From an uncultured Alphaproteobacteria bacterium (GTDB lineage: Bacteria; Pseudomonadota; Alphaproteobacteria; CAAHEQ01; UBA3637), in NCBI GenBank assembly GCA_944392795.1, contig CALXXX010000006.1, forward strand, positions 18,485 through 82,484: DNA of 64,000 bases. Direction: 5' to 3'. A model generated the notes under the pieces. The model was not told the DNA's origin. It ran no database searches and worked only from the letters and a program-made list of their open reading frames with translations. The translations under genes and the position numbers were made by a program. Position 1 is the stretch's first letter; each line of letters starts with the position of its first letter. Shown here piece after piece: positions 1 to 61,585 of this stretch.

Positions 1-1
1 A

Positions 2-799
2 CATATTGGTAAGAAGATTGCAGCAACACTTGCATCTGTAGGAACGCCGGCTTTTTTCGTTCACCCTGCAGAAGCGAGTCATGGTGATTTAGGCATGTTG
101 ACAACTGATGACACAATTTTAGCTTTGTCTAATTCAGGAGAATCAAAAGAGCTAGCAGACATTATCGCATTTGCTCATCGCTTTGGTATTAAAATGATTT
201 GCATGGTAGGAAATGCTAATAGCACTTTAGCAAAAGCTTCTGATATTATTTTGTGTTATCCTCCTTTTGAGGAAGCTTGTTCTTTTGGTATGGCTCCGAC
301 CACATCTACAACTTTGTCGTTAGCCTTGGGAGATGCTCTTGCCATGACACTTTTAGAGCTTAAAGGGTTTACAAAGGAGCTGTATCGAGATAGACATCCT
401 GGGGGAAAGCTTGGAGCTATGTTGTTAAAAGTAAAAGAGCTTATGGCAACCGGAACGGATATGCCGATTGTTCCGAAGGGGACAACAATGACACAAGCAC
501 TGATTGAAATGACAGGGAAAAGTCTTGGTTGTGTTGGTGTAATCGATACAGATGGTCGATTGATTGGGATGATTACAGATGGAGATTTGCGTCGTCATAT
601 GAGCCCGTCTCTTTTATCTTTAACAGTAGACGAAGTTATGACAAAGTCCCCAAAAACAATTAACGGAGAAATGTTGGCAGCGGAAGCTGTTCGTTTTATG
701 AATGAGAATAAGATTACGAATGTCTTTGCCGTTGATTCAGAAGGCAAGCCAGAAGGTCTCTTACATATTCATCAATGTATGCAGGCGGGAGTTGTATAG
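2..799 (+). CDS. kdsD: Arabinose-5-phosphate isomerase (KdsD/KpsF), 5'-truncated at the window edge
   Basis: Frame 2 translates from nt 2 as HIGKKIAATLASVGTPAFFVHPAEASHGDLGM (SIS domain). Tandem CBS-like motifs follow (GVIDTDGRLIGMITDGDLRR). It sits directly upstream of lptC/lptB. Confidence 0.85.
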   Translation, partial: HIGKKIAATLASVGTPAFFVHPAEASHGDLGMLTTDDTILALSNSGESKELADIIAFAHRFGIKMICMVGNANSTLAKASDIILCYPPFEEACSFGMAPTTSTTLSLALGDALAMTLLELKGFTKELYRDRHPGGKLGAMLLKVKELMATGTDMPIVPKGTTMTQALIEMTGKSLGCVGVIDTDGRLIGMITDGDLRRHMSPSLLSLTVDEVMTKSPKTINGEMLAAEAVRFMNENKITNVFAVDSEGKPEGLLHIHQCMQAGVV

Positions 800-1852
800 G
801 TGAGAACAGCAAGTCGTTCTATTCGTAATCATCGTCGTTTTATACGTTTTTTACGTTTTTTGTTTCCTTTTGTCGCATTCATTATTGCGGCGTGTTTATT
901 ATTGTGGCCGCAATTAGTAAAGCAAAAGAGTTTTATCGATTCATTATTAAAAATTTCTCCTCTTCATTTTTCGACAAAAGCGAATATTGATATGACAAAA
1001 GTACAATTTTTCTCCGAAGATGAGAAAGGTCAACCATTTACAATTGTATCAGAAAAAGTTTTAGAAACAGATCCAACACAGCAACTGGTTCGAATGGACA
1101 ATCCAAAAGGGGAGATGACTTTAAATTCTGGAGTAAAAATTTTTACCTCTTCGCCTTTTGGGCTTTTTTATCAAGGAACTGAGGTTCTTGTTTTTGAAGA
1201 TAAGGTTAAAATTACGACTGATAATGGATATGAGGGTGATTTATCTAATGTCACTTTATATCATAAAGAAAAGTCTGCCCAAAGTTCAGAAAAAATCACT
1301 GTAACTGGTCCTAAAGGCTCTCTGGATGCAGAGGGCTTTAAGATGTGGGATAACGGAGATAAAATTGATTTTTATGGAAATTCAAAATTAATTGTCAAAC
1401 AGACAGAAGAAAGTGACACAATTATTGTTACTAGTCAAAACGGGATGGAAGTTCGTCAAACAGATAAGACGTTGACGGCAAAAGGAAATGCAGTCTTGAC
1501 CCGTGCAGATAATCAGCTATATGCAGATCGAATAACAGGGTATTATACAGAAATACAGCCTAAGAAATATGAACTTGTTTCTATGAAAGCAGTCGGACAT
1601 GTAAAAATTGTGACTCCAACGGAAACGATTACAGGAAATGATGCTTTTTATGATATGAACACAGAAAAGGCTTTTATTACCGGAGATGTTCATGTCCAGC
1701 GTTCCGAAGGTAAAATGAACGGAGATAGAGCTATTATAGATATGAAAAAAGGCGTTAGTCAGTTGGAACAGGATAAAGCTCTTCCAAATGCGACAGGTCG
1801 CGTACAAGGAGTTTTGTTGCCAGCACGGTTAAAAAAAGATAAGATGAATTAA
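800..1852 (+). CDS. LptC-LptA-like LPS transport protein: N-terminal TM anchor plus two OstA-type beta-jellyroll segments in one 350-aa ORF (GTG start)
   Basis: The N-terminal hydrophobic segment FLFPFVAFIIAACLLLW is followed by an LptC-like region. A second LptA/OstA_N-like region carries GNAVLTRADNQLYADRI ... ITGNDAFYD ... ITGDVHV. There is no separate lptA between this ORF and lptB. Confidence 0.6.
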   Translation: MRTASRSIRNHRRFIRFLRFLFPFVAFIIAACLLLWPQLVKQKSFIDSLLKISPLHFSTKANIDMTKVQFFSEDEKGQPFTIVSEKVLETDPTQQLVRMDNPKGEMTLNSGVKIFTSSPFGLFYQGTEVLVFEDKVKITTDNGYEGDLSNVTLYHKEKSAQSSEKITVTGPKGSLDAEGFKMWDNGDKIDFYGNSKLIVKQTEESDTIIVTSQNGMEVRQTDKTLTAKGNAVLTRADNQLYADRITGYYTEIQPKKYELVSMKAVGHVKIVTPTETITGNDAFYDMNTEKAFITGDVHVQRSEGKMNGDRAIIDMKKGVSQLEQDKALPNATGRVQGVLLPARLKKDKMN

Positions 1853-1875: not shown

Positions 1876-2613
1876 ATGGAAATAAAAAAAGAACGCGGTT
1901 TAATTGCAAAAAACATTGGGAAATCTTATAAGAACAGAACAGTTTTGCGAGATATTTCACTTTCTGTTCATCAAGGAGAGGCTGTTGGTCTTTTAGGCCC
2001 TAACGGAGCAGGGAAAACAACGTGCTTTTACTGTATTACAGGTTTGATTAGACCCAATTTTGGTCAGATTTTATTAAATGGTATTGATATTACGTCTTTG
2101 CCGATGTATCAGCGTTCTCGGCTTGGGATAGGTTATTTACCTCAGGAGTCTTCAATTTTTAGAGGATTAACAGTAGAACAAAATATTATGGCTGTTTTAG
2201 AGGTCGTTGAGGATGATGCAACGGCTCGTGAAGCTCGTTTAGATGCCTTATTGGGTGAATTTTCTATCTCTCATTTGCGTCAAGCACCATCTAAAGCTTT
2301 GTCTGGAGGGGAACGTCGCCGATTAGAAATTGCACGGGCTTTAGCTTCTAATCCATCTTTTATTCTTTTAGATGAACCTCTTGCCGGTATTGATCCTATT
2401 GCAGTGGCAGAAATTCGTGATTTAGTGGCTCATTTAAAAAACAGGGGATTGGGTGTTTTAATTACAGATCATAATGTTCGAGAAACTTTAGGCATTATAG
2501 ATCGTGCATATATTTTGAGTGACGGTATTATGTTAAAAGAAGGTGTACCTGATGAAATTGTCGCAGATGAGCGAGTTCGGAAAATTTATTTAGGCGAAAG
2601 CTTTTCCATTTAG
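1876..2613 (+). CDS. lptB: LPS export ABC transporter ATP-binding protein LptB
   Basis: Walker A GPNGAGKTT, ABC signature LSGGERRR and Walker B ILLDEP are present. The gene follows lptC/A. Confidence 0.9.
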   Translation: MEIKKERGLIAKNIGKSYKNRTVLRDISLSVHQGEAVGLLGPNGAGKTTCFYCITGLIRPNFGQILLNGIDITSLPMYQRSRLGIGYLPQESSIFRGLTVEQNIMAVLEVVEDDATAREARLDALLGEFSISHLRQAPSKALSGGERRRLEIARALASNPSFILLDEPLAGIDPIAVAEIRDLVAHLKNRGLGVLITDHNVRETLGIIDRAYILSDGIMLKEGVPDEIVADERVRKIYLGESFSI

Positions 2614-2699
2614 GTTATTGTTTTATTTGTTTTCTTGATAAAATCTTCTTGTATTTATTTTAAAATTCGATTATTTTGAAGGAAAGGAAAGGACTTCAA

Positions 2700-4448
2700 A
2701 TGAATATATTTACCGCTTTAAAAAGTGACATTCAGCAAACTATTCAAAAGTTAGCAGAAGATAAAAAAATCAATCATATGCCGGATTTGTCTCGGATGAC
2801 GACAGAGCCTCCTCGTGATTCTGCTCATGGAGATGTTGCTTCAAACGTAGCAATGGTAGTGGCGGGACAGCTTCAGATGAAACCCAGAGATTTTGCTTCA
2901 TTATTGGCAGAAGAGTTGCAGAAATTGCCATCCGTTGAAACAGTTGAAGTCGCCGGTCCCGGATTTATCAATCTTAAATTATCTAACTCTTTTTGGTATC
3001 AACAATTACGGACAGTTCTTTTAGAAAAGGAACATTATGGTGATTCTGATATGGGAAGAGGCGAAAAAGTTAATGTAGAGTTTGTCTCTGTTAACCCAAC
3101 GGGTCCAATGCATGTTGGTCATTCGCGTGGTGCTATTTTTGGAGATGCTTTGGCTGGATTGTTACAAAAAGCAGGTTTTGATGTTACTCGAGAATATTAT
3201 ATGAATGATGCCGGCGCACAAGTTGATAAGTTGGCTCGTTCAGCTTATTTGCGTTATCGAGAAGCAATGGGTGAAGATATTGGTGAAATACCTGAGGGAT
3301 ATTATCCGGGAGATTATTTAAAGCCTGTCGGTGCTTATATTGCTGAAAAAGACGGCGATAAATGGATGAATGTGGAAGAAAAAGACTGCCATGATTATTT
3401 TCGAGATATCGCTGTTCAAAAAATGATGGAACTGATTAAAGCTGATTTGGATTTATTAGGGATTCATTTTGATGTTTTTTCTTCTGAACGAGCGATTAAA
3501 GAGTCCGGAGGTATTGAAAAGGCCTTGAATATTCTTAGAAGTCGTCATTTAATATATAAAGGAATATTAGAAAAACCTAAAAGTGCTAAAGCTCCGGAAG
3601 ATTGGGAGCCTCAGGAAATGACGATATTTAAATCAACGGAATTCGGAGATGAAGCTGATCGTCCGTTAATGCGTTCGGATGGAACTTATACCTATTTTAC
3701 ACCAGACATTGCGTATCAATATGATAAGTTTTCCAGAGGATTTAAAAAACTGATTATGGTTTTAGGTGCTGATCATGCCGGTTATGTGACACGTTTGAAG
3801 TCAGCAGTAAAAGCCGTGACAAATGGTGAGGCCGATTTAGATATTAAACTCGTTCAAATGGTTAATTTTACGCAAAATGGTCAACCGCTGAAGATGTCAA
3901 AAAGGGCTGGAACTTTTGTGAGCTTTGCCGATCTTTTAAATCAAATTGGTAAAGATGTTGCTCGTTTTTTCATGCTTACGCGCAAAAATGACAGCCAGTT
4001 GGATTTTGATTTCGTTAAAGTTAAAGAGCAATCAAAAGATAATCCTGTCTTTTATGTTCAATATGCTCATGCTCGTGCCCATTCTGTCTTTCGGCATGCT
4101 GCTGAAATGTTTGGAGCAGATATTTTGGAAGGACTGGAAAAAGCAGATATGACATTATTAACAGATGAAACTGAAATAGCTCTTATTCGGACATTGTCAG
4201 CTTTTCCAAGACAAGTGGAATTGGCTGCAGAAGCCAATGAGCCGCATCGGATAGCTTATTATTTATATGATTTGGCTTCTGCTTTTCATGCGTTGTGGAA
4301 TAAAGGACGAGATGATGTTCAAATGCGTTTTTTAGATGAGAAAAACAAAGAATTATCTCGTTCTCGTTTAGCTTTAATTATGGCTGTGACTTATGTTATT
4401 GCAGCCGGTTTATCTATTTTTGGTGTGATCCCGGCAAAGGAGATGTAA
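2700..4448 (+). CDS. argS: Arginine--tRNA ligase
   Basis: Class I HIGH motif (HVGHSRG) and KMSKRAG are present. The start MNIF is preceded by the RBS aaggaaagga. The listed ORF begins at an in-frame TTG at 2676. Confidence 0.92.
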   Translation: MNIFTALKSDIQQTIQKLAEDKKINHMPDLSRMTTEPPRDSAHGDVASNVAMVVAGQLQMKPRDFASLLAEELQKLPSVETVEVAGPGFINLKLSNSFWYQQLRTVLLEKEHYGDSDMGRGEKVNVEFVSVNPTGPMHVGHSRGAIFGDALAGLLQKAGFDVTREYYMNDAGAQVDKLARSAYLRYREAMGEDIGEIPEGYYPGDYLKPVGAYIAEKDGDKWMNVEEKDCHDYFRDIAVQKMMELIKADLDLLGIHFDVFSSERAIKESGGIEKALNILRSRHLIYKGILEKPKSAKAPEDWEPQEMTIFKSTEFGDEADRPLMRSDGTYTYFTPDIAYQYDKFSRGFKKLIMVLGADHAGYVTRLKSAVKAVTNGEADLDIKLVQMVNFTQNGQPLKMSKRAGTFVSFADLLNQIGKDVARFFMLTRKNDSQLDFDFVKVKEQSKDNPVFYVQYAHARAHSVFRHAAEMFGADILEGLEKADMTLLTDETEIALIRTLSAFPRQVELAAEANEPHRIAYYLYDLASAFHALWNKGRDDVQMRFLDEKNKELSRSRLALIMAVTYVIAAGLSIFGVIPAKEM

Positions 4449-16494: not shown

Positions 16495-16571
16495 CGGGGC
16501 GTAGCTCAGCCTGGTAGAGTACTTGTATGGGGTGCAAGGGGTCGTGGGTTCAAGTCCCGCCGCCCCGACCA
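16495..16571 (+). tRNA. tRNA-Pro (anticodon GGG)
   Basis: Manual cloverleaf: acceptor stem CGGGGCG/CGCCCCG with C1:G72 (typical of tRNA-Pro); D-arm GCTC..GAGT; anticodon stem CTTGT/GCAAG; loop ATGGGGT (U33, G34G35G36, G37); T-arm GTGGG-TTCAAGT-CCCGC; discriminator A; encoded CCA. Confidence 0.9.
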
Positions 16572-25952: not shown

Positions 25953-27152
25953 ATGACCCAAGAAGGAACTCAAGTAACGACACCTCAAATACAATATGTT
26001 GGAGATGGTGTTCAGACAAATTTTAGCTTTTCCTTTCAAATCTTTGAAGAAAGTAATTTGAAAGTTTATTTAGGGAGTGTTTTACAACAAAAAGGCTATA
26101 CAGTTCAGAAGGAAGAAGAAAGTTTAGGGGGAACAGTTATTTTTAATGAAGCTCCGGTATCTGGTGAGCTTATTACTTTAGTACGAGAGCTTGATTTAGA
26201 GCGGACAACAGATTTCGCTTCCGGAGGCGTTTTACGAGCTGCTGATTTAAACTATGAGTTTGATTATCAAATGGGATGTTTGCAACAATTATCTTCTGGA
26301 TTGAGCCGTTCTTTATTGTTGCCTGTTTTTGAAAATAAAGAGGGGATTGATTTTAGCTTACCAGCACCTGAGGCTAATAAAGCTCTTGTCTGGAATGCAC
26401 AAGGTAATTCGTTGATGAATAGTCAAGTTGAAATAGGGAATTTAGATGCTTCTCTTACTCAGGCAGTATCAACAGTTTCTGATTTGGCTGAAGAGGTCAG
26501 TCAAATGAAAGAAAATGCTCAAGAAGCTGCAACGACAGCTACGACGCAAGCAGCAATAGCGACACAGAAAGCACAAGAAGTTCAGCAGAACTTCTCTAAT
26601 TTATATCCTTTTCATGTCAATTCGAACAGTTGTGATTTAAATAGCTTAACAGCCTCAGGAATTTATGAAGTGATAGCTTCGGCGCATTATCCTTTAGATA
26701 CAGGATATTATCATGTTGAGGTATATGTTCCGTCACAAGGTAATATAGTTCAGACAGCTTATGCAGTTGGTGCAAGTATGGGAGGGTATCCAGCTACTTA
26801 TCGTCGTCGTTTTATAAACAGTGCTTGGGAAGATTGGCTTCAGATTTCTAATGAAGGAATGGGGAGTCCTTCAGGGCAAGTGATTAATATTTCTGTAGAA
26901 AGTGCCGGAGAACAACATGTTTTAAATTCTCCTGCAAATGGATTTTATTGCTTGATAGGTTTATCAACTGCAGCTTCTCAGGAAGTTTATTTGAGTAATT
27001 CAGTAAATGGTATGGCTGTTTTAAGCTCTGCAACAGCTCCATCTAAGAATCTCGCAATTTTCTTGCCGGTCTCAGCTAATCAAAATGTGCGCTATTTATA
27101 TACAACAGCAGGTACAGTGACATTGAAATTTATTTATGCGAAAGGAGTTTAA
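25953..27152 (+). CDS. Phage T7 gp17-like tail-fibre protein (N-terminal tail-attachment domain plus a divergent C-terminal domain)
   Basis: N-terminus QYVGDGVQTNFSFSFQIFEESNLKVYL...TDFASGGVLRAADLNYEFDYQ parallels T7 gp17 YQLDGSNRDFNIPFEY...VDFTDGSILRAYDLNVAQIQ. Confidence 0.65.
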   Translation: MTQEGTQVTTPQIQYVGDGVQTNFSFSFQIFEESNLKVYLGSVLQQKGYTVQKEEESLGGTVIFNEAPVSGELITLVRELDLERTTDFASGGVLRAADLNYEFDYQMGCLQQLSSGLSRSLLLPVFENKEGIDFSLPAPEANKALVWNAQGNSLMNSQVEIGNLDASLTQAVSTVSDLAEEVSQMKENAQEAATTATTQAAIATQKAQEVQQNFSNLYPFHVNSNSCDLNSLTASGIYEVIASAHYPLDTGYYHVEVYVPSQGNIVQTAYAVGASMGGYPATYRRRFINSAWEDWLQISNEGMGSPSGQVINISVESAGEQHVLNSPANGFYCLIGLSTAASQEVYLSNSVNGMAVLSSATAPSKNLAIFLPVSANQNVRYLYTTAGTVTLKFIYAKGV

Positions 27153-28318: not shown

Positions 28319-30481
28319 ATGACTGAAGGCTTGATTAAAGTAAGTGTTATTCTTCCTATTTATAATGTAGAAAAATATATTTCACAAAGCCTAGATAGTT
28401 TACTTAATCAGACTTTAAAAGAAATTGCAATTATTTGTGTCGATGATGGTTCTACTGATAATACTCCTAAAATTTTAGAGGACTATCGTCAAAAAGATAG
28501 TCGAATTCATGTTATCAGGCAAAAAAATCAATATGCTGGGGTGGCTCGTAATAATGGGTTTGAGTATCAATTGCGGTTGCCAGGCGGTGGTGCTCCGTAT
28601 GTTATTTTCTTAGATCCAGATGACATATATGCTAAAGATATGTTGGAAAAACTGTATAATCGAGCTATTGAAACAAAAGCTGATGTTGTTTTGTCTCATT
28701 TAAATTATATTATTGATAATCGTGTAAGCTTTCGACCTTCTAGTTTTTATGAAAGTTATTTGATACACAAATACATAAAAGATGTTTTTTCTTGGAAAGA
28801 AATAGGCGGTGATGTTTTCTTTTTCCATGTTTATCCTTTTAATAAATTATGTTCTGTAGATTTTCTTCAGAAAAACCACTTTCGCTTTCAAGGTGTTAGA
28901 AATACAAATGATGCTGTTTTCGGATTAGATATTATTAGCTTCGCAGAGAGAATTGCACATATTGCGGATGCGCCGTATTTTTATCGTTTTAATCGAGATA
29001 ATAATACCCGAACGACGAAAGGAAAAAATTTAGATAGTGTATTATTGGCTTATGATGAGGCTTTAAGACATATTCAAAAGCATCCTGACTATGAAAAGAT
29101 AAAACCACAATTTTTATTGGCTCTTGTTCAATTTTATGCTTTTCATATTTATACATATTGTGTTAAGGAAGATAAGAAAAAAGAGTGTTTTTCTCTTATC
29201 TCAAAACAAAAAGATTTTTTTCATAAAGCTCAGGCTTTTATTAGAAAAACTTATTTAGAGACGCCAGATGTGTTAATCATGCAAAGGTATGCATTCCCAA
29301 AACAATTACCTAGAACAGAAGATTTAGGTTTGCATATAGAGCGTTTTTTAAAACAAAAAAAATTTTCTATATACAAAAAAATTAAACATTTTATATGGCA
29401 TCAAAAAGCAAAAAATGACATAATAAAAATGTATTTATTGGGCTTTCTTATTTTTAAAAAAGAAAAAAAACAAAACAAAACCATATGTAAGGTTTTAGGA
29501 ATTTCATTATATAAAGAAAAGAAAAAAAATAATATTATAATCGGGAAATTATGTGGAATTAAGATTTTTAAATCCAAGGCACTTCCATATAAAAGAATCT
29601 TGTCTCAGATGATTCATAAGGCTGATATACATAGAGGAGAAGATGCATATATTCTTTTTGTGAATAGTGGAGAAACATATTTAGTTGCTCAAGTTTTAAA
29701 GGATTTCTACCAGAAGGAAAGGCCTAATAGACCTAAAATTATTGTTCCTCGATTATATCAAAAAATAATTATATCTATGTATGCTCCTTGGGCAGATGTT
29801 GTTGTTTTTCCTGAAAAAAATGAAAATTATCGTCATGTTTGTAGATATATAGAGAAAAAATCTTATATAAAAGGAGTTCATTTTAAAAATATTATACCAA
29901 TAGATATGTGGTATGGTGAGGAAGTTAAAAAAGTTCATTATTTTTCTTTAATTATGAAGATGATGGGACTTCCGATTGAAAAAACATGTTTATTTCAAAA
30001 GCCTCAATTTATTTCATTCGGTAAAAAATGGGGTGTACAACAACGTTTTTTACAGATGAATTTAAATAGAGATCGCTTTATATTTCTTTCTCCAGAGGCT
30101 ACAACAATTTCTCCAATACCTAATCATTTATGGCAAGATTTTATAGATAAAGTGAGAGAAAAAGGATATGATGTATTTTTAAACACAACTTGTTCACCTC
30201 AGTTAGAGGGATGTAAAAGTTGTTTTTTAGATTTTGAAGAAGCGTATGAGCTAGCTTCTTATGCTAAAGCTATTATTGGTTTGAGGAGTGGTTTTTTAGA
30301 AACATTAACAACAATAAATACACCATTCCATGTAATTTATAATAGGGATATACAAGGTAATAACAATCGTCTTCTTCGTAATACTTTATTAAAATTACCA
30401 GGTGTTCATCCGGAACAAATACATGAATATGATTATTTGAAAAATCCAAGATGTTTGGAAGATATCTTGAAATTGTTATAA
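28319..30481 (+). CDS. Multidomain glycosyltransferase: N-terminal GT2, central Lys-rich ~19-aa repeats, C-terminal GT9 (heptosyltransferase)-like domain
   Basis: GT2 motif ILPIYNVEKYISQSLDSLLNQT...CVDDGSTDNT. Repeats MYLLGFLIFKKEKKQNKTI / CKVLGISLYKEKKKNNIII / GKLCGIKIFKSK. C-terminus FIFLSPEATT...IIGLRSGFLE is GT9-like. Confidence 0.6.
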   Translation: MTEGLIKVSVILPIYNVEKYISQSLDSLLNQTLKEIAIICVDDGSTDNTPKILEDYRQKDSRIHVIRQKNQYAGVARNNGFEYQLRLPGGGAPYVIFLDPDDIYAKDMLEKLYNRAIETKADVVLSHLNYIIDNRVSFRPSSFYESYLIHKYIKDVFSWKEIGGDVFFFHVYPFNKLCSVDFLQKNHFRFQGVRNTNDAVFGLDIISFAERIAHIADAPYFYRFNRDNNTRTTKGKNLDSVLLAYDEALRHIQKHPDYEKIKPQFLLALVQFYAFHIYTYCVKEDKKKECFSLISKQKDFFHKAQAFIRKTYLETPDVLIMQRYAFPKQLPRTEDLGLHIERFLKQKKFSIYKKIKHFIWHQKAKNDIIKMYLLGFLIFKKEKKQNKTICKVLGISLYKEKKKNNIIIGKLCGIKIFKSKALPYKRILSQMIHKADIHRGEDAYILFVNSGETYLVAQVLKDFYQKERPNRPKIIVPRLYQKIIISMYAPWADVVVFPEKNENYRHVCRYIEKKSYIKGVHFKNIIPIDMWYGEEVKKVHYFSLIMKMMGLPIEKTCLFQKPQFISFGKKWGVQQRFLQMNLNRDRFIFLSPEATTISPIPNHLWQDFIDKVREKGYDVFLNTTCSPQLEGCKSCFLDFEEAYELASYAKAIIGLRSGFLETLTTINTPFHVIYNRDIQGNNNRLLRNTLLKLPGVHPEQIHEYDYLKNPRCLEDILKLL

Positions 30482-30485
30482 ATTT

Positions 30486-32639
30486 TTAATTTATTTTTTC
30501 AAGAATATCGTCTATGACAGAATCATAATCTTCCGGTCGAATTCGAAAGTATTCATAGCAATTGTTTGTTTGTGTAATGAGATTAATGCTATAAACTTCC
30601 TGAACCCATTTATTAACATCAACTAAGAAAGAAAAGTGAGCCGGATGGCGATCTAAATAAAAAATAAATTTTTTAGCTTTTGTTTCTTGCATACATTCTG
30701 AAAACCCACTTCGTCCTGCGATCATGTAGCCGCACAGCTCAATAAAATGAAATGTTGCTGAAAAGTTTAAGAAAATTTTGTGAACATGAGTATTCAGAAC
30801 AGTATCGTAGGCCGTTCCTTTCGTATTAATAACGATATCAAAATGACGTTTTCTGAAGGAGTTGATTAACTTCTCCATCAATTCTATTGGAAAGTTTCCA
30901 AAAAAGTCTGTTTCTGGGGATAAAAATATTACTTTATTTTGGGTTAGTTTTAAATTTTTGAATGCTGTTTCAGCTTCTTTAATAGCTTGTTGAGAAATAT
31001 GGGGAAGTTCATGAGGCGTGTTTTGGTCTAACAATAAGAAGTCTTTAATAACATGATTGATTGGATAAAAATGCCATTGTTTTTTATCATCTGTAAATGT
31101 TTGAATACCATGTACTTGATCTTTCCATCCATGCTTAGTTTCACGAATCGTGATGTAATTTAATAATTTACCTTTTGCATTATAGAAAAAACCGGAAGAA
31201 GGAGTAAAATGTTTGATATGAATAAAATGAGTATCGATATAGTCTTTTGAAAAACCAAACATTTCAAGTATTTGTTTAGTATAAGGGAAAAAACTACCAA
31301 TAAAAACTTCTTGTTTTAGTTTTTTTTGGAGCTCTCTTAATAGACTAAAAATATAATAGCTCTCACCAGAATGATAATTCAGGTAAAGGAATGGATGCCC
31401 ATTGGCTTGTTTACGTAAAAAGGACATCCAATTGTTAAAAGCTTCTGTTCTAAAATTCTTATTATGATAAACTTTGATGCCCAAAATAGAGATAATTAAT
31501 TTTTTGTTTTTGACTTTTCGGCTAAAGAAAGGAATACCCAAAACAGAAATATTCATTTTATAAGAATTTTTGTGATTTACATAGCGTATAATTCCACCCA
31601 ATAATTTATATTTTTCATTTTTTTTCCTAAAAATAGGAAATCCAAAAATTTCATACTTTAAATTATCCTTTTTTGTTTCCTTTTTGAAAAAAGGAATAAA
31701 GTTAAATAAGAAAATGCGCTTTTTATTATTTTTTTCTTTAAAACGCAATAGAGGAATGATGCCAAATAAATAAATTTTTTTCTTTTTGGGTAAAGCTTGA
31801 TGAAGTAAAATCTCTTCCTGAATATCTTGAATATTAAAAAGTGTTTTAAACGAAAATACAGAATACGTTTTTTTGTCGGTTGAATAATAAACATAAAGTT
31901 TTCTATTAGGTGCAAAGGCAATTAAATCGCATAAACCACTTCGTAAGGCATGTACTTCGTGGCAGTATGTTGCAAGCATGATTACTTCTTCTAAATTTAA
32001 AGGGATATTAGGTACTCCTTTAATGAGAGATTCTTCCTTCGTTATATTAGATACGACGATATATCCTTTATTAAGAAAATTATGAGCTAATTTTTCCCAA
32101 AAACGAGGGGATAAAGGCGGAACGGAATTTGCCTCTGGTAATAATAAAACTATTTTTTCTAACGGGCCATATTGAGCTAATTTTTCTTTTAATCTTTGAG
32201 AGAGAACGGGATATTTAAATGGTTTTGAAAATGAAGCAGTCGTAGGTAATTTTAGAAAATCCTTATACCAGCTTAAGAATGTCAAATGTTCGCGATGTTC
32301 TTTCATCTCTTGAACGAACTTTTTAGCCCAAGGGTGAAAATCTGGATGAGCAACAAATATTTTTCCTAATTCTGGTTTCGGCGTTTTTAAAGCAAAAGAA
32401 AAAAGAGAGGCTTTGTCAAAAGAGGCGATAACATAATCTTTAGTGTCATATAGCTGCGCAACAATCATATGAGAGGGTTTAATGATGAAATGAACTTTCC
32501 CCTTTAATTGCTTTTCTATTTCTTTTTTTAAGCCGATCAGGCAAAGAGAATCTCCCAATCCGCATGGAGATAGGAAATAATAAACATCTGATCTGCCTTT
32601 AAAAGAGCTTAAGTCATTGATGACAGATGAAGAATTCAT
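30486..32639 (-). CDS. Multidomain glycosyltransferase with two GT9-like modules flanking an array of ~6 Lys-rich 19-20-aa repeats
   Basis: N-module FLSPCGLGDSLCLIG (GT9 GxGD motif). C-module VIFLSPETDF...MIAGRSGFSE. The central repeats follow the pattern h-h-G-I-P-h-F-x-K-K-x-x-K. Confidence 0.55.
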   Translation of the reverse strand: MNSSSVINDLSSFKGRSDVYYFLSPCGLGDSLCLIGLKKEIEKQLKGKVHFIIKPSHMIVAQLYDTKDYVIASFDKASLFSFALKTPKPELGKIFVAHPDFHPWAKKFVQEMKEHREHLTFLSWYKDFLKLPTTASFSKPFKYPVLSQRLKEKLAQYGPLEKIVLLLPEANSVPPLSPRFWEKLAHNFLNKGYIVVSNITKEESLIKGVPNIPLNLEEVIMLATYCHEVHALRSGLCDLIAFAPNRKLYVYYSTDKKTYSVFSFKTLFNIQDIQEEILLHQALPKKKKIYLFGIIPLLRFKEKNNKKRIFLFNFIPFFKKETKKDNLKYEIFGFPIFRKKNEKYKLLGGIIRYVNHKNSYKMNISVLGIPFFSRKVKNKKLIISILGIKVYHNKNFRTEAFNNWMSFLRKQANGHPFLYLNYHSGESYYIFSLLRELQKKLKQEVFIGSFFPYTKQILEMFGFSKDYIDTHFIHIKHFTPSSGFFYNAKGKLLNYITIRETKHGWKDQVHGIQTFTDDKKQWHFYPINHVIKDFLLLDQNTPHELPHISQQAIKEAETAFKNLKLTQNKVIFLSPETDFFGNFPIELMEKLINSFRKRHFDIVINTKGTAYDTVLNTHVHKIFLNFSATFHFIELCGYMIAGRSGFSECMQETKAKKFIFYLDRHPAHFSFLVDVNKWVQEVYSINLITQTNNCYEYFRIRPEDYDSVIDDILEKIN

Positions 32640-32648
32640 AAAAAGCCT

Positions 32649-33878
32649 CTATAGATTGATATTTTGAACAAATTTAATCGCCTCATACATTGAAACATCA
32701 GCATTTTGGTATTGCCATTGTCCCCATCTTCCAACGCCAAACAAGTGTTGAGGATGATAATACTCCAGAACATTCTTAATTGCTTGAGCATGTCCGATAA
32801 CAGGAATTGGATAAGCAGCTTGTGTTTCAAAATGAGCTAATGCTTTTGTTCCCATAACAGGATCATCTCCTTGGAAACGTTTAATATTTGTTTCAATATA
32901 AATACCATTTTTCTTGCTGTCGAAAGCAAAGTTAGAAATATAAAATTCCCGATGATAACGACGATTGATATCCGGAACATAGCGCCAATGCCAATTGACA
33001 TCGTAGTCTTTTTCATATAAAGAAACGACGATACGGTTGTATTGCATTTTTGCAAAATCATCTTTTAGAACAGAAGGTTCACCTAAAGCTTTGAACAAAT
33101 CAGGCCAAGGAGCTGTGTTTATTACATTTTTTGCTTGATATTGTTCATTGATGAGCCATGTTCCATCTGCTTGATATTGCATTTTCGTGACAGGCGTATT
33201 GAGAACGACATTAGAAGCTTCATCTTTGTAGATTGCATCAAAAATAGCTTGGAAGCCGCCTTTTTTAGGGTAGTAGAAGCCTATATGAGCAGGGAATTTC
33301 GTGACGTCTTGCTTACGATCCAAACTGTATTTTAAAACTTCTTCCACATTAACACGTGGAATTTTGTATAACCAGTCGACATCCATTTCGGCAGGTGTGA
33401 CTCCCCAAAGCTTAGTATTGTAAGGGATCATATAAGTGTCACAGATTTTATCACCTAGTTTCCAGCGAATCCATTCTTCATAATTTTTTGGTTCAGGTTT
33501 TCCTAAAGATTCTCCATTACGAATGACAGAGATTAAATAGGAAATCTGTTCATCTTGAGGTAATTGCCACAAGTTAGATTCAATAGGATAGTCAATGGTT
33601 GTTTCGCCAATTAACTGCTTTGAAACTCGTGGAATAAAATTAAATTCGCTTTCGGGAATATGGCTGAAAATATAGTCATAAACTTCTTGATGCTTTGTTC
33701 CAAAAAAGTGTCCACCGCCGATATCTAAAATATGACCATCAATTATTTTGGTCGTACATAAACCACCAGCTTCTTTTCCAGCTTCCAGAACCACAACGTT
33801 TTTAATGCCTTTTTCTTTTAATTTTTTGCATAAAGTAACACCAGTGACTCCTGCACCAATAATCAGATAATCATACAT
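32649..33878 (-). CDS. glf: UDP-galactopyranose mutase
   Basis: FAD-binding MYDYLIIGAGVTG at the N-terminus and Glf-family motifs throughout. The true start at 33878 has the RBS aaggaaaa. Confidence 0.85.
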   Translation of the reverse strand: MYDYLIIGAGVTGVTLCKKLKEKGIKNVVVLEAGKEAGGLCTTKIIDGHILDIGGGHFFGTKHQEVYDYIFSHIPESEFNFIPRVSKQLIGETTIDYPIESNLWQLPQDEQISYLISVIRNGESLGKPEPKNYEEWIRWKLGDKICDTYMIPYNTKLWGVTPAEMDVDWLYKIPRVNVEEVLKYSLDRKQDVTKFPAHIGFYYPKKGGFQAIFDAIYKDEASNVVLNTPVTKMQYQADGTWLINEQYQAKNVINTAPWPDLFKALGEPSVLKDDFAKMQYNRIVVSLYEKDYDVNWHWRYVPDINRRYHREFYISNFAFDSKKNGIYIETNIKRFQGDDPVMGTKALAHFETQAAYPIPVIGHAQAIKNVLEYYHPQHLFGVGRWGQWQYQNADVSMYEAIKFVQNINL

Positions 33879-33889
33879 TCTCTTTTCCT

Positions 33890-34948
33890 TTATAAAGATT
33901 GATACCAAGTATAGAAAGCTTGAATGCCTTCTTCCAAAGAAATCTTTGGTTCCCACCCCAAAGCTTTAATTCGTGTGGCATCCATCATTTTTCGCGGTGT
34001 CCCATTCGGCTTTGAAGTATCATACTCAATTTTCCCTTGATAATTGGTAATACGTTTTGTTAATTCAAACAAATTCTTCAATTGAATATCATCACCTTTT
34101 GTAATATTAACAAATTCACCAATTTCGTTATAATCTTTGTTATTCATCAAGTAAATACAAGCATCGGCTAAGTCATCTGAACACATCATTTCGCGATAAA
34201 CTGAACCATCTCCCCACATAACCACTTTATCTGAATATACTCCTACTTTTTCTAAAGCTTTTAAAAGATTATTTTGGTCGTTAAAATCAAGATGTTCATC
34301 TAATCCCCAACCTAATTTATAGCGCTTTAAATCTGTTTTAATCGCATCCCAATCATTTTGCATCAATAACTTTGCTAAATGGAAACGACGCATGATAACC
34401 GGTAATAAGTGCCCGGTTTCCATATTAAAGTTATCTCCTTGACCATATTGATTGGTCGGCATGACTGAAATAAAGTTTGTTCCATATTGTTTATTATAAT
34501 ATTGGCAAAGTTTAATAGCCGATATTTTTGCAAGAGCATACGCTTCATTTGTTTTTTCTAGTTCTCCAGTTAACAGAGCTTCTTCCTTCATCGGTTGAGG
34601 CGCCATACGTGGATAGATACAAGAAGAGCCTAAATTTAAGAGTTTTTTGACACCTGTTTTATACGCACTATCAATTACATTACAAGCGATCATCAGATTT
34701 TGATAAATAAACTCAGCAGGGTAAGTTGAATTTGCCATAATTCCCCCCACTTTTGCAGCTGCCAAAAGAACATATTCTGGCTTTTCTTGCTCAAAGAAAG
34801 AAAGTGTCTGAGCCTGATTTGTTAAATCTAATTCAGAAAAAGTTCTTGTAATAATGTTAGTATAACCAGCTTTTTTTAAGCCTCGATGAATGGCAGAACC
34901 AACCAAGCCCATATGTCCTGCTAAATAAATCTTTGCATCTTTTTCCAT
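33890..34948 (-). CDS. fcl: GDP-L-fucose synthase (GDP-4-keto-6-deoxy-D-mannose 3,5-epimerase/4-reductase)
   Basis: KIYLAGHMGLVGSAI...LLAAAKVGGI...YGQGDNF. It contains a ~30-aa insertion relative to the typical ~320-aa Fcl. Confidence 0.85.
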   Translation of the reverse strand: MEKDAKIYLAGHMGLVGSAIHRGLKKAGYTNIITRTFSELDLTNQAQTLSFFEQEKPEYVLLAAAKVGGIMANSTYPAEFIYQNLMIACNVIDSAYKTGVKKLLNLGSSCIYPRMAPQPMKEEALLTGELEKTNEAYALAKISAIKLCQYYNKQYGTNFISVMPTNQYGQGDNFNMETGHLLPVIMRRFHLAKLLMQNDWDAIKTDLKRYKLGWGLDEHLDFNDQNNLLKALEKVGVYSDKVVMWGDGSVYREMMCSDDLADACIYLMNNKDYNEIGEFVNITKGDDIQLKNLFELTKRITNYQGKIEYDTSKPNGTPRKMMDATRIKALGWEPKISLEEGIQAFYTWYQSL

Positions 34949-34953
34949 ATTAT

Positions 34954-36048
34954 TTACACCTCCTGAGGGATTAAAACCTGATATCCATTTCCTGTTAAGA
35001 ATTTTTCACGCATTGCTTCTTTCATATCAGATTCAACCATATCTTTAACCAACTCTTCTAAAGAATGTTCTGCTTTCCAACCCAACTTCTTTTCAGCTTT
35101 ACTAGGGTCTCCTAATAATAAATCGACTTCTGCGGGACGAAAGTATTTTGGATCTACTTCGATAAGGACATTGCCGGTGGCGGCATCAATTCCTTTTTCG
35201 TTTATGCCTTCACCTTCCCATTTTAACTGATATCCTAATTCTTTAAAGACCAAGTTACAAAAATCTCGAATTGTTGTTGTTTTTCCGGTCGCTAAAACAA
35301 AGTCTTCAGCTTTTTCTTGTTGAAGCATTAACCACATGCCTTTTACATAATCTTTTGCATGTCCCCAGTCGCGTTTTGAAGATAAGTTACCTAAGTAGAG
35401 TTTATCTTGCATACCAAGGCGGATTCGAACAGCAGCTCTGGTAATTTTTCGTGTAACAAATGTTTCTCCTCGACGAGGGCTTTCATGGTTGAATAGAATG
35501 CCATTACAAGCAAACATGCCATAGCTTTCACGGTAGTTAACCGTAATCCAGTAAGCATATAATTTAGCACAACCATAGGGGGAACGAGGATAAAAAGGCG
35601 TCGTTTCCTTTTGAGGTGTTTCTTGTACGAGTCCGTAGAGTTCAGAAGTTGAGGCTTGATAAAATCTTGTTTTCTTTTCTAAACCAAGGATACGAATAGC
35701 CTCTAAGAAACGTAATGTTCCGATACCATCAGCATTTGCAGTATATTCTGGAACATCAAAAGAGACTTTAACATGTGATTGAGCGGCTAAATTATAAATC
35801 TCATCAGGCTGAATTTCTTGTAAGAGACGAATGATATTGCTTGTGTCTGTTAAATCTGCATAATGTAAATAAAAATTACGATTCGCACTATGAGTATCTT
35901 GATATAAATGATCGATGCGAGCTGAGTTAAAGGAGGAAGCACGTCGTTTCATTCCATGCACTTCATATCCTTTTTCCAATAATAACTCTGCTAAATATGA
36001 ACCATCTTGTCCGGTAACACCGGTAATTAAAGCCACTTTTTTTGTCAT
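34954..36048 (-). CDS. gmd: GDP-mannose 4,6-dehydratase
   Basis: [29 protein letters not shown] and the SDR catalytic region. Confidence 0.9.
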
Positions 36049-36056
36049 TATCTATC

Positions 36057-36488
36057 CTATTTTTTCCAATTATTTAAAATCCACGAAGAAGAATTCATTT
36101 TATTTTCTCCTCCAACTCCGAAACGTAACTCAACTTGATAGGCTTTACAAGTATCAATTTCTGGAATATTTGTTTGTGTTCTGTCTCCGCCGTTTGCAAA
36201 AACAAGTCGATCATGTGGGTATTTCTGACGAGCCTTACGAATACCATCACTTGCGGAGTTATCAGAATCATCAAAACTAATTACGTCTATAACGCCTTTG
36301 ATATTTTCACAGATTGTTTGGCGTGTCTTTTGAGACATAAAATTTTTCCCTTTCTTCCGACATAACCACTCATCTGAATTTAAAAGTAAAATAACGCCAT
36401 CCGATTCTTTTTGTGAGGCTTTAATCATTTCAATATGACCTTCATGAATAGGATCAAACCCTCCACTGACAATGTAGTAAGTTTTCAT
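36057..36488 (-). CDS. Cytidylyl/adenylyl-transferase-like protein (HldE domain II / heptose-1-phosphate adenylyltransferase-like)
   Basis: Nucleotidyltransferase HxGH motif VSGGFDPIHEGHI, then LLNSDEW...KG and ...FANGGD. Confidence 0.65.
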   Translation of the reverse strand: MKTYYIVSGGFDPIHEGHIEMIKASQKESDGVILLLNSDEWLCRKKGKNFMSQKTRQTICENIKGVIDVISFDDSDNSASDGIRKARQKYPHDRLVFANGGDRTQTNIPEIDTCKAYQVELRFGVGGENKMNSSSWILNNWKK

Positions 36489-36621
36489 TTTTTTTTGTCT
36501 TTCTTTTATGAATAGTTGAAGGAATTATAATAGATAAAAACTGAAAAGCAAGTAGAAAATCTTTTAAGTTCAATATTTTTTTTAATCGTATCCATTTTTG
36601 TTTAAAATGGTATTTTTATAG

Positions 36622-37482
36622 TTATTCTTGAGGTAGATGCCATCCTTCTTTTTTTGTATAAAAAAGAATTTTGTTAGTATGAAGATATTTATACTTATCC
36701 TTTTTGCGCCAAAGATGACGTTGTTTCCAAAGGTGATAAATTGTCTTTAAAGAAATTTTTTCTTTTCCTACAATTTCTTCCATTTCTTTTCGGTATTGAA
36801 AAATATTTTCTGATAATTGGCCAGGTCGGGTGCGGGCAGCGGCTAAAAAAGTGTTAGCTATATAAAGAGGCGTTTGTTGAGCAAAAGACCACCATAGATA
36901 AAAATCTCCGGCCAAATGAAAAGAAGAGAATTTTTTATAATTGAAATTATTCATTAACGAACGTCTCCAAAAAGTCGTTTCTTGTTGAATAAAAGGGAGT
37001 TGATTTCCATAATAACCTTTTAAAATATCTTGTTGAAAATATTCAAAAGGAAGACGATTAAAGATGATATTTCCTTTTTCGTCTGTCGTACATTGACGGC
37101 TGCATAACCAAGAAATCTGAGGATATTTGTCGAAAATGGAACAGGCAAACTCAAAGGCATTAGGTAGATAATAATCATCAGCGTTAATATAGGCCATAAT
37201 ATCCCCTGTTGCTAGTTTGAAGCCTTTTGCAATTCCGTCATACATACCTTGATCTTTTTCTGATATTACTTTCATTTCAATCCGAGGCTTTAGAAGAAGA
37301 TCTTGTTTTTGTTTTAAATTATCTTGAAAATTTGAAATGATCTGTAGGCTCTTATCAGAGGATAAGCCATCAATTATAATATACTCCAGATCAAAGTTTC
37401 CTTTTTGTGAAACGACACTGTTTAAGGTTTCATAAATATATTTATCGCAGTTGAGACAAGGTGTTATAATTGATATTTTCAT
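36622..37482 (-). CDS. Glycosyltransferase family 2
   Basis: ISIITPCLN...IIIDGLSSD...NADDY (DxD). Confidence 0.75.
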   Translation of the reverse strand: MKISIITPCLNCDKYIYETLNSVVSQKGNFDLEYIIIDGLSSDKSLQIISNFQDNLKQKQDLLLKPRIEMKVISEKDQGMYDGIAKGFKLATGDIMAYINADDYYLPNAFEFACSIFDKYPQISWLCSRQCTTDEKGNIIFNRLPFEYFQQDILKGYYGNQLPFIQQETTFWRRSLMNNFNYKKFSSFHLAGDFYLWWSFAQQTPLYIANTFLAAARTRPGQLSENIFQYRKEMEEIVGKEKISLKTIYHLWKQRHLWRKKDKYKYLHTNKILFYTKKEGWHLPQE

Positions 37483-37518
37483 CTTATAGTGGTTTCTTTT
37501 TAATTTATTTTTTTACTT

Positions 37519-54852: not shown

Positions 54853-54906
54853 TTTACTATTTTATTTTAAACTACACACAGCTTTATGTATGTTTTAGAG
54901 GTAAAA

Positions 54907-61567: not shown

Positions 61568-61585
61568 GCTCATTCCTAAAGGTTG

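What the first reader, a model, noticed from the sequence alone, without database searches (positions are those of the whole stretch)
800..1852. Apparent single-polypeptide LptC-LptA fusion in the kdsD-lptC-lptA-lptB operon
Between kdsD and lptB there is one 350-aa ORF, where lptC (~200 aa, TM-anchored) and lptA (~180 aa, periplasmic with signal peptide) are normally separate genes. Its N-terminal half is LptC-like (TM plus jellyroll). Its C-terminal half has the LptA/OstA_N signature (GNAVLTRADNQLYADRI, ITGNDAFYD, ITGDVHVQ) with no internal signal peptide, stop or RBS. A covalent LptC-LptA bridge would be an interesting simplification of the Lpt trans-envelope bridge, perhaps linked to a narrow periplasm.
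Basis: seen in the sequence. Interest (0 to 1): 0.55.

Follow-up and report, generated by a model that had tools for sequence, protein, structure and literature searches.

The report
Natural one-piece LptC–LptA LPS bridge protein
In a group of uncultured gut Alphaproteobacteria, two normally separate proteins that carry lipopolysaccharide across the periplasm (membrane-anchored LptC and soluble LptA) are encoded as one conserved 350-residue protein, a natural version of a fusion so far only made in the laboratory.

Summary
Window 800-1852 (+) is one 350-aa ORF between kdsD and lptB. Residues 28-196 match LptC and residues 201-341 match LptA, each half passing its Pfam cut-off on its own. There is one N-terminal transmembrane helix and no internal signal peptide.

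It is not an artefact. The identical ORF lies on four independent metagenome contigs, 13 species-level MAGs carry it in the same operon slot, and both halves and the junction are under purifying selection.

Unfused relatives have lptC (228 aa) plus a two-module lptA (280 aa). The fusion keeps nearly all of LptC and only the second LptA module, which is about the size of E. coli LptA. AlphaFold2 predicts one continuous beta-jellyroll.

Related lineages carry LptC fused to two, three or more LptA modules (up to 625 aa). These grew by recent tandem duplication.

I found no paper describing a natural fusion. An engineered E. coli LptC-LptA fusion works in vitro.

Whether a free LptA also exists elsewhere in these genomes could not be tested. 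This is a new variant of a known system and of moderate interest.

The parts
1..799 (+). 3' part of kdsD (arabinose-5-phosphate isomerase, SIS + CBS domains). The gene starts upstream of the window. Its TAG stop is at 797-799.
   Evidence: Pfam SIS + CBS. The full-length orthologue on the same-species contig L001 scores TIGR00393 288.5 bits against a cut-off of 203.7, with KdsD as best hit.
787..802 (+). Translation start region of the fusion gene: GGGAG (787-791), kdsD stop TAG (797-799) and GTG start (800-802). The stop and start abut, which suggests translational coupling.
   Evidence: Sequence. The same GTG start and N-terminus are conserved in orthologues L005, L006, L007, L008, L012 and L015.
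800..1852 (+). lptC-lptA fusion gene, 350 codons plus stop.
848..910 (+). Single N-terminal transmembrane helix (residues ~17-37), preceded by an Arg-rich cytoplasmic tail. This is the LptC-type membrane anchor.
   Evidence: Kyte-Doolittle peak of 2.5 at residues 17-35. The AlphaFold2 helix spans residues 4-50.
881..1387 (+). LptC beta-jellyroll module (residues 28-196).
   Evidence: PF06835 at residues 28-196. TIGR04409 at residues 21-196, 58.9 bits against a cut-off of 38. 32% identity to the separate LptC of L018 over fusion residues 8-198, matching LptC residues 30-219 of 228. Foldseek matches LptC structures 6mit_C and 3my2.
1397..1420 (+). Fusion joint (residues ~200-207, KQTEESDT): a short loop between the last LptC strands and the first LptA strands, not a long linker.
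   Evidence: The pLDDT block for residues 201-210 is 76, flanked by 93 and 94. Strands lie at 188-192, 195-199, 208-212 and 216-219. The 28-sequence alignment is almost indel-free here.
1400..1822 (+). LptA-type beta-jellyroll module (residues 201-341). It corresponds to the second module of the two-module alphaproteobacterial LptA and to nearly all of mature E. coli LptA. It ends in the conserved tail RVQGVLLP (residues 334-341, nt 1799-1822).
   Evidence: PF03968 at residues 216-318. TIGR03002 positions 3-141 of 142. 32% identity to L018 LptA residues 132-270 of 280. The family profile aligns to 2R19 LptA residues 22-146 of 159, including the C-terminal tail. Foldseek TM-score 0.75-0.80 to LptA and LptH.
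1876..2613 (+). lptB, the ATPase of the LptB2FG(C) transporter and the next gene in the operon.
   Evidence: TIGR04406 370.5 bits against a cut-off of 240.

Best explanation
The ORF is a genuine, conserved gene fusion of lptC and lptA. Its product is a bitopic inner-membrane protein. An Arg-rich cytoplasmic tail and one transmembrane helix (the LptC anchor that in E. coli sits between LptF and LptG) are followed by one uninterrupted beta-jellyroll. That jellyroll consists of the LptC module joined by an ~8-residue loop to a single LptA module. Shown here: the domain content, the orthology of each half, the conservation, the selection, the operon position and the predicted continuous fold. Inferred from the E. 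coli Lpt pathway: LptB2FG extracts LPS and loads it onto the LptC end. LPS then slides along the hydrophobic groove of the fused rod. The LptA-type C-terminal edge, with its conserved tail RVxGxLxP, docks on the N-terminal jellyroll of LptD. The weak, dissociable LptC-LptA contact is thereby replaced by a peptide bond, and the number of LptA units per bridge is fixed in cis at one. Most parsimonious history (inferred): lptC and a two-module lptA, translationally coupled (TAATG), fused with loss of the LptA signal peptide. The lineage of this window then lost the first LptA module, while other lineages gained modules by tandem duplication. That the fusion is the only LptA in the cell is likely (about 0.6) but not shown.
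For: Each half independently passes Pfam cut-offs for LptC and for LptA/LptD_N, and TIGR04409 LptC passes its cut-off. Reciprocal similarity: fusion residues 8-198 match L018 LptC residues 30-219 (E 3e-31), and residues 210-345 match L018 LptA residues 132-270 (E 6e-18), whereas the C half against LptC gives only E 0.24. By sequence, the family profile hits only LptA chains in the PDB, and the alignment includes the C-terminal tail. The AlphaFold2 model has pLDDT 78.8, with 85-94 across residues 100-310, one helix and about 25 consecutive strands. Foldseek finds LptA, LptH and LptC. The identical ORF is on four independent contigs. 16 loci from 13 species have kdsD-fusion-lptB with no other LptA-like ORF in the flanks, while 7 unfused loci have kdsD-lptC-lptA-lptB. 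pN is 0.045-0.16 against pS of 0.61-0.88 in both halves and at the junction. There is no second LptC- or LptA-like ORF in the 64-kb window. The genome-wide pattern scan used a motif conserved in free alphaproteobacterial LptA ([DSA][RK]A[VI][IVM][DN]M[KR][TKS]G), and it returned only one locus per fusion-bearing genome. An engineered E. coli LptC-LptA fusion binds LptB2FG stably and delivers LPS to LptDE in an ATP-dependent manner in vitro (PMC12065857). Monomeric LptA suffices in vivo (PMC5575297).
Against: No complete genome of a fusion-bearing organism could be searched. A free LptA elsewhere, and the presence of lptD, lptF and lptG, therefore remain unverified. None of these lies in the 64-kb window. 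The C half scores below the curated TIGR03002 LptA cut-off (37.5 against 71.7), although the bona fide free LptA of L018 also fails it (55.4). All members are from uncultured MAGs, so there is no expression, processing or functional evidence. The structure is a monomer prediction built from only 28 sequences.
Confidence: 0.8

Rival explanations
1. The fusion is real, but a separate soluble LptA is encoded elsewhere and still extends the bridge. In that case the fused module only tethers the first LptA unit to the inner membrane.
For: E. coli LptA oligomerises head to tail, and the number of LptA units per bridge is unknown (PMC5575297). The periplasmic part of the fusion is only about 65% as long as LptC plus LptA of the unfused relative L018. 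Whole genomes were not searchable.
Against: The lptA slot of the operon is empty in all 16 fusion loci. The scan of GTDB species genomes with a motif conserved in free alphaproteobacterial LptA found one locus per fusion genome. The only apparent stand-alone match, P0030, is a chimeric scaffold. Related lineages lengthen the rod in cis by adding modules, which would be unnecessary if free LptA filled the gap.
Confidence: 0.25
2. It is simply a long LptC: the C half is a duplicated LptC jellyroll, and the real lptA lies elsewhere.
For: LptC and LptA are homologous (same Pfam clan), and the C half gives weak LptC hits (19.7 bits Pfam, 29.9 bits TIGR04409). NCBI annotates several members as LptC.
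Against: The C half scores 48.2 bits on PF03968 against 19.7 on LptC. It aligns to the LptA of L018 at E 6e-18 but to the LptC of L018 only at E 0.24. It shares the LptA-specific C-terminal tail with E. coli LptA. There is no internal repeat above shuffled background in the protein. Synteny shows it occupies the lptA position.
Confidence: 0.04
3. It is a sequencing or assembly artefact, or a frameshifted pseudogene joining two genes.
For: The source is metagenomic.
Against: An identical protein occurs on four independently assembled contigs. The same architecture occurs in 13 species down to 41% identity, with a near indel-free junction. Purifying selection acts on the junction. About 160 residues are missing relative to the separate genes, which a frameshift cannot produce.
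Confidence: 0.01
4. The machine moves a cargo other than LPS, for example surface lipoproteins as proposed for the Borrelia Lpt homologues. The fused rod would then be adapted to that cargo.
For: Lpt homologues exist in LPS-free Borrelia, with an unusual lipoprotein LptC (bioRxiv 10.1101/2022.12.21.521298). Lipid A genes were not seen in the window.
Against: The gene is translationally coupled to kdsD, a Kdo biosynthesis gene, and is followed by an equivalog-level lptB. The window also carries a GDP-sugar and glycosyltransferase surface-polysaccharide cluster.
Confidence: 0.05

Closest known systems
Canonical E. coli LptC (191 aa, TM-anchored) plus LptA (185 aa, secreted), encoded by kdsD-kdsC-lptC-lptA-lptB
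   Same: The operon neighbourhood is the same (kdsD upstream, lptB downstream). Both have an N-terminal TM anchor, two head-to-tail OstA-type beta-jellyrolls and an LptA-type C-terminal tail. The fold matches 2R19/2R1A LptA and 3MY2/6MIT LptC.
   Different: Here the two are one polypeptide. The LptA signal peptide is absent, and the non-covalent LptC-LptA interface is replaced by an ~8-residue loop. That interface has Ki ~1.8 uM in E. coli and is broken by thanatin-type compounds (PMC10208570). kdsC is not present between kdsD and the fusion.
Engineered E. coli LptC-LptA fusion protein (Nat Commun 2025, PMC12065857)
   Same: It is a covalent LptC-LptA. It forms a stable complex with LptB2FG and supports ATP-dependent LPS transfer to LptDE in vitro. 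It is therefore a functional precedent for the mechanism proposed here.
   Different: It is man-made, was built to overcome LptA oligomerisation in vitro, and was not reported as a natural architecture. The natural protein is conserved and under selection in a whole clade.
Separate lptC plus two-module lptA of related Alphaproteobacteria (L018, L019 and Rhodospirillaceae L020-L023)
   Same: These are the orthologous genes in the same operon slot. The fusion's N half is 32% identical to their LptC, and its C half is 32% identical to their LptA module 2.
   Different: They are two genes coupled by TAATG. Their LptA has a signal peptide and two PF03968 stretches (~280 aa), and rpoN follows lptB. 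The fusion lacks the last ~9 residues of LptC, the signal peptide and the whole first LptA module.
Multi-module LptC-(LptA)n fusions in sister MAG lineages (for example MBQ9270747.1 at 501 aa, P0178 at 457 aa, P0045 at 625 aa)
   Same: They have the same TM-LptC head, the same kdsD-X-lptB slot and the same LptA-type C-terminal tail.
   Different: They carry two, three or more LptA-type modules. Some were made by recent tandem duplication of 64-95-aa units, at 57-59% identity between copies. The window protein is the minimal one-module form.
Six-protein Lpt bridge in E. coli LptF suppressor mutants that lack LptC (PMC4986956, PMC9972910)
   Same: It is another way to reduce the number of separate bridge components from seven to six.
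   Different: There LptC is lost and LptA contacts LptF directly. Here both modules are kept and joined.

Membership tests
LptC (PF06835 / TIGR04409) | The curated family models match above their cut-offs. | tested here: met
   TIGR04409 scores 58.9 bits (cut-off 38) over residues 21-196, covering model positions 2-177 of 180. PF06835 scores 39.4 bits (cut-off 21). The N half alone scores 38.8 and 26.6 bits.
LptC (PF06835 / TIGR04409) | A single N-terminal transmembrane anchor with the jellyroll in the periplasm. | tested here: met
   There is one hydrophobic segment (Kyte-Doolittle 2.5, residues 17-35) after an Arg-rich tail. The AlphaFold2 helix at 4-50 is followed by beta strands.
LptC (PF06835 / TIGR04409) | The gene lies between kdsD(/kdsC) and lptA/lptB. 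| tested here: met
   kdsD stop at 797-799, fusion at 800-1852, lptB at 1876. The arrangement is the same in 16 loci.
LptC (PF06835 / TIGR04409) | It binds LptF/LptG and modulates LptB2FG ATPase activity. | not testable with these tools
   This needs biochemistry or multimer modelling. lptF and lptG are not in the window.
LptA (PF03968 / TIGR03002) | An OstA/LptA-type jellyroll is recognised by the Pfam model and by fold. | tested here: met
   The C half scores 48.2 bits on PF03968 (cut-off 20.4). Foldseek TM-score is 0.75-0.80 to 2R19/2R1A LptA and 4UU4 LptH.
LptA (PF03968 / TIGR03002) | The equivalog model TIGR03002 matches above its cut-off. | tested here: inconclusive
   The score is 35-37.5 bits against a cut-off of 71.7, but the match covers model positions 3-141 of 142. 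The undisputed free LptA of L018 also fails (55.4), as do the longer fusions (33.7-60.5). The model is evidently too narrow for this class.
LptA (PF03968 / TIGR03002) | Orthology to lptA by reciprocal similarity and gene position. | tested here: met
   Residues 210-345 match L018 LptA residues 132-270 (E 6e-18), against E 0.24 to L018 LptC. It occupies the lptA slot.
LptA (PF03968 / TIGR03002) | A secreted, soluble periplasmic protein with a cleavable signal peptide. | tested here: not met
   There is no hydrophobic segment after residue 37 (maximum Kyte-Doolittle 0.73 in residues 150-330). The module is covalently continuous with LptC. It is therefore an LptA-homologous module, not a canonical free LptA protein.
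LptA (PF03968 / TIGR03002) | A C-terminal edge and tail that dock on the LptD N-terminal domain. | not testable with these tools
   The tail RVxGxLxP is invariant or nearly invariant in the family (R334, V335, G337, P341) and aligns with the E. coli LptA tail RVTTVLVPSQL. Binding itself was not tested, and lptD was not found in the window.
Natural LptC-(LptA)n fusion family (defined here) | A TM helix, an LptC module and at least one LptA module in one ORF between kdsD and lptB, with no separate lptA alongside. | tested here: met
   Window. L001-L016 and L025-L027. About 55 clusters at 50% identity among the best 150 profile hits.

The most novel reading that the evidence does not exclude
In this gut alphaproteobacterial radiation the whole periplasmic span between LptFG and LptD is a single polypeptide, and no free LptA exists. 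The length of the LPS bridge would then be set genetically in cis by the number of LptA-type modules. That number ranges from one in this window to four or more in relatives, and it changes by tandem duplication and deletion of 64-95-aa jellyroll units. The fusion family would thus act as a molecular ruler that tracks periplasm width. It would also remove the LptC-LptA and LptA-LptA interfaces that thanatin-class antibiotics attack.
Probability: 0.3. Interest if true: 0.75.

Novelty: new variant of a known kind. Interest (0 to 1): 0.55.

Why it matters
How many LptA units make up the LPS bridge, and whether the bridge is stable or transient, are open questions. [quoted passage not shown] A natural protein in which LptC and exactly one LptA module are covalently joined shows that a 1:1 bridge anchored permanently at the inner membrane is evolutionarily viable. 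The sister forms with 2-4 modules give a natural length series. That series could be tested against periplasm width, or transplanted into E. coli.

The fusion also removes the weakest contact of the bridge, the LptC-LptA interface (micromolar in E. coli). That interface is a target of thanatin-type antibiotics, so the protein is relevant to resistance and to in vitro reconstitution and structural work. An engineered fusion was already needed for such reconstitution.

Practically, databases label these proteins inconsistently as LptC, LptA/OstA family or hypothetical. As a result, genomes of this clade would wrongly appear to lack one of the two components.

Tried and rejected
1. I guessed that the minus-strand ORFs at 36048-30486 (364, 352, 435 and 717 aa) were lptF-lptG-...-lptD. 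Pfam shows GDP-mannose 4,6-dehydratase, an NAD epimerase, a flavin oxidoreductase and an unknown protein, which is a surface-polysaccharide cluster. No other Lpt gene apart from lptB lies in the window.

2. P0030 (235 aa, 74% identical, LptA half only) looked like a free LptA in a close relative. Its N-terminus is ribosomal protein L15 and it follows the ribosomal operon, so it is a chimeric scaffold.

3. Self-BLAST for internal repeats returned nothing. I replaced it with split local alignments using shuffle controls.

4. The first bootstrap tree timed out. I redid it with a fast distance calculation.

5. A Foldseek search of AFDB50, intended to find named organisms with the same fold, was unavailable.

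6. Five literature searches for a natural LptC-LptA fusion found only operon names ('lptCA'), tagged constructs and one engineered fusion.

7. Cluster look-ups gave no taxonomy finer than 'Alphaproteobacteria bacterium'.

8. I considered an internal translation start at Met216 and rejected it. There is no Shine-Dalgarno motif at a proper distance, and the product would lack a signal peptide.

Full report
OBSERVATION. Window 800-1852 (+) is one uninterrupted 350-codon ORF starting with GTG. The GTG abuts the TAG stop of the upstream gene (797-799), and a GGGAG motif lies 8 nt upstream of it. The upstream gene is a KpsF/GutQ-family sugar-phosphate isomerase that best matches KdsD (TIGR00393, 288.5 bits against a cut-off of 203.7). 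The downstream gene at 1876-2613 is LptB at equivalog level (TIGR04406, 370.5 bits against 240). The protein has a single transmembrane-grade hydrophobic segment (residues 17-35) and nothing comparable later: the maximum Kyte-Doolittle value is 0.73 in residues 150-330. It therefore has no internal signal peptide. Promoter-like and terminator-like matches in the region do not exceed the shuffled expectation.

DOMAIN CONTENT. The whole protein hits PF06835 LptC (residues 28-196) and PF03968 LptA/LptD_N (residues 216-318), both above the gathering score. When the protein is split at residue 194, the N half alone still passes LptC (26.6 bits against 21). The C half alone passes PF03968 (48.2 bits against 20.4) and gives only 19.7 bits on LptC. 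NCBIfam gives TIGR04409 LptC at 58.9 bits (cut-off 38). It gives TIGR03002 LptA at 35-37.5 bits, below the 71.7 cut-off, although the match covers the model end to end (positions 3-141 of 142). That cut-off is not informative here, because the undisputed free LptA of a related MAG also fails it at 55.4 bits. A profile of the family finds only LptA chains in the PDB by sequence. It aligns residues 221-347 to residues 22-146 of the 159-residue mature E. coli LptA, including the C-terminal tail.

NOT AN ARTEFACT. The identical 350-aa protein is encoded on four independently assembled contigs from different samples, always in the order RNase-D-like, kdsD, the fusion gene, lptB, argS. A word-indexed search found 29 further relatives of 322-360 aa, down to 41% identity. 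They align with almost no indels across the junction, and invariant residues lie on both sides of it. A scan of GTDB species genomes found the fused gene in 13 species-level MAGs of uncultured Alphaproteobacteria from human, Hadza, yak and sheep gut or rumen. In all 16 fused loci the order is kdsD, fusion, lptB, with no other LptA-like ORF in the flanks. Among the three closest orthologues, non-synonymous differences are few (pN 0.045-0.16) while synonymous sites are near saturation (pS 0.61-0.88). This holds in the LptC half, in the LptA half and in the junction window of residues 185-230.

WHAT WAS FUSED AND WHAT WAS LOST. The same scan returned unfused relatives. Two gut MAGs (L018, L019) and several Rhodospirillaceae (L020-L023) have kdsD, lptC (about 228-238 aa), lptA (278-297 aa, with a signal peptide), lptB and rpoN. 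In L018 the lptC stop overlaps the lptA start (TAATG). Their LptA contains two PF03968 stretches. Fusion residues 8-198 align to L018 LptC residues 30-219 of 228 (32% identity, E 3e-31). Fusion residues 210-345 align to L018 LptA residues 132-270 of 280 (32% identity, E 6e-18). The C half has no significant match to LptC (E 0.24). The fusion therefore equals nearly all of LptC plus only the second LptA module. The last ~9 residues of LptC, the LptA signal peptide and the first LptA module are gone, about 160 residues in all. The retained module is about the size of the whole E. coli LptA.

STRUCTURE. AlphaFold2 on the 28-sequence alignment gives mean pLDDT 78.8 and pTM 0.66. The model has a helix at residues 4-50, a low-confidence tether at 49-65, and then about 25 consecutive beta strands from 67 to 339. 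The pLDDT is 85-94 over residues 100-310. The only dip (76) is at residues 201-210, the joint, flanked by 93 and 94. Foldseek against the PDB returns LptA (2R19/2R1A, TM-score 0.75-0.80 on the target), LptH (4UU4), LptC within LptB2FGC (6MIT_C, 0.63) and isolated LptC (3MY2, 0.75). The joint is thus a short loop inside one continuous jellyroll, not a flexible linker.

A WIDER FAMILY. An exhaustive profile search of 1.84 billion cluster representatives gave 6,167 hits at E <= 0.001 and 140 at E <= 1e-30. I classified the best 150 with separate HMMs for the two halves. About 55 clusters at 50% identity are fusions, in three classes.
- LptC plus one module: 322-364 aa.
- LptC plus two modules: about 377-470 aa.
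- LptC plus three or more modules: 465-625 aa.
The remaining hits are ordinary free two-module LptA proteins and a few free LptC proteins. Two of the longer forms were checked in NCBI MAG assemblies. They sit in the same kdsD-X-lptB slot. Several long forms contain recent tandem duplications. P0031 has 59% identity over 95 aa at a period of 95, and P0036 has 57% over 63 aa. The window protein has no internal repeat above shuffled background. A KdsD+LptB neighbour-joining tree (558 columns, 200 bootstraps) places all one-module fusions in one clade (100%), sister to a two-module fusion lineage (98%). The branching order of the unfused gut lineage and a three-module lineage is unresolved (58%). 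The most parsimonious reading is that lptC fused end to end with a two-module lptA, and the ancestor of the window's clade then lost module 1. The number of fusion events is not settled.

MECHANISM (inferred from the E. coli pathway). The transmembrane helix and LptC module should associate with LptB2FG. LPS would travel along the single rod, and the LptA-type C-terminal edge would dock on the LptD N-terminal jellyroll. That edge carries the conserved tail RVxGxLxP (R334, V335, G337 and P341 are invariant or nearly so). The literature supports feasibility in three ways.
- An engineered E. coli LptC-LptA fusion forms a stable complex with LptB2FG and delivers LPS to LptDE in an ATP-dependent manner (PMC12065857).
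- A monomeric LptA supports growth, and a bridge with one LptA is estimated at ~16 nm against a ~21-nm periplasm (PMC5575297).
- The E. coli LptC-LptA contact is weak (Ki ~1.8 uM, against ~35 nM for LptA-LptA) and is broken by thanatin-type compounds (PMC10208570).
Fusion would remove that weak, drug-sensitive contact and fix the stoichiometry at one. By residue count, the periplasmic part (about 285 aa) is roughly 88% of E. coli LptC plus one LptA, and about 65% of LptC plus LptA in L018. Fused relatives with up to four or more modules show that fusion as such is not tied to a short bridge.

LIMITS. No whole genome of a fusion-bearing organism could be searched. The window has no second LptC-, LptA- or LptD_N-like ORF, and its other envelope locus is a polysaccharide cluster, not lptDFG. 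The pattern scan used a motif that is conserved in free alphaproteobacterial LptA, and it returned one locus per fusion genome. The one apparent stand-alone hit is a chimeric scaffold. This makes a free LptA unlikely but does not exclude it. All members are uncultured. There is no expression or functional evidence.

KNOWN OR NEW. Five full-text searches found no description of a natural LptC-LptA fusion. Database names for members are 'LptC', 'LptA/OstA family protein' or 'hypothetical protein'. The components, fold and pathway are well known, and fusion of adjacent homologous genes is a common evolutionary event. I therefore rate this a new variant of a known kind, with moderate interest (0.55). 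The interest would rise if the cis-encoded, variable-length bridge proves to be the only LptA in these cells.

Noticed in passing
L018:1930-2772, L019:6609-7445, L022:6666-7520, L020:5941-6834: The free LptA of these Alphaproteobacteria is about 280-297 aa and contains two PF03968 stretches. It is a roughly 1.6-module jellyroll, much longer than the 185-aa E. coli LptA. Most of the best free-LptA hits in the exhaustive search share this two-stretch layout.
   Followed up: partly
P0031, P0036, P0045, P0047, P0072 (proteins), L025-L027 (loci): LptC-(LptA)n fusions with 2-4 or more modules carry recent internal tandem duplications of 64-95-aa units, with up to 59% identity between copies. This suggests accordion-like length evolution of the bridge.
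   Followed up: partly
window 2614-4448, L018:3591-5051, L025:8339-9372: rpoN follows lptB directly in every unfused locus (L018, L019, L021-L024). tblastn finds no rpoN in the 64-kb window or in the flanks of any fused locus. In the window lptB is followed by argS, and in L025/L026 by hpf and a PTS-EIIA gene, as if rpoN had been excised.
   Followed up: partly
window 28319-38772: This is a surface-polysaccharide gene cluster: two GT2 and one GT1 glycosyltransferases, GDP-mannose 4,6-dehydratase, an NAD epimerase, a flavin oxidoreductase and a 717-aa protein with no Pfam match. It lies in the lowest-GC part of the window (0.29 at 28-32 kb against ~0.35 overall), so it may have been acquired horizontally.
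   Followed up: no
L028:5001-5708 (protein P0030): This is a chimeric metagenome scaffold. An ORF call joins the ribosomal protein L15 N-terminus to the last 146 residues of a fusion gene, and so mimics a stand-alone LptA.
   Followed up: yes
window 25953-27152 (+): A 399-aa ORF gives a sub-threshold hit to the phage T7 tail-fibre N-terminal domain (23.5 bits against a cut-off of 25.2). It may be a prophage remnant.
   Followed up: no
window 16495-16568 (+) and 61585-61680 (-): A tRNA gene and the bacterial small SRP RNA are the only Rfam matches at gathering score in the window.
   Followed up: no
L001:609-3826 (same species, upstream of the window start): A pentapeptide-repeat protein and a type IV secretion coupling protein (TraG/VirD4 family) lie a few kb upstream of kdsD on one contig (L001), but not on the others. 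This points to strain-level mobile-element variation next to the operon.
   Followed up: no
window 54886-57924 (+): A 1,012-aa subtilase (Peptidase_S8) is encoded here, and a 753-aa U32 peptidase at 39684-41945. Both are large secreted-protease candidates in a small, low-GC gut bacterium.
   Followed up: no
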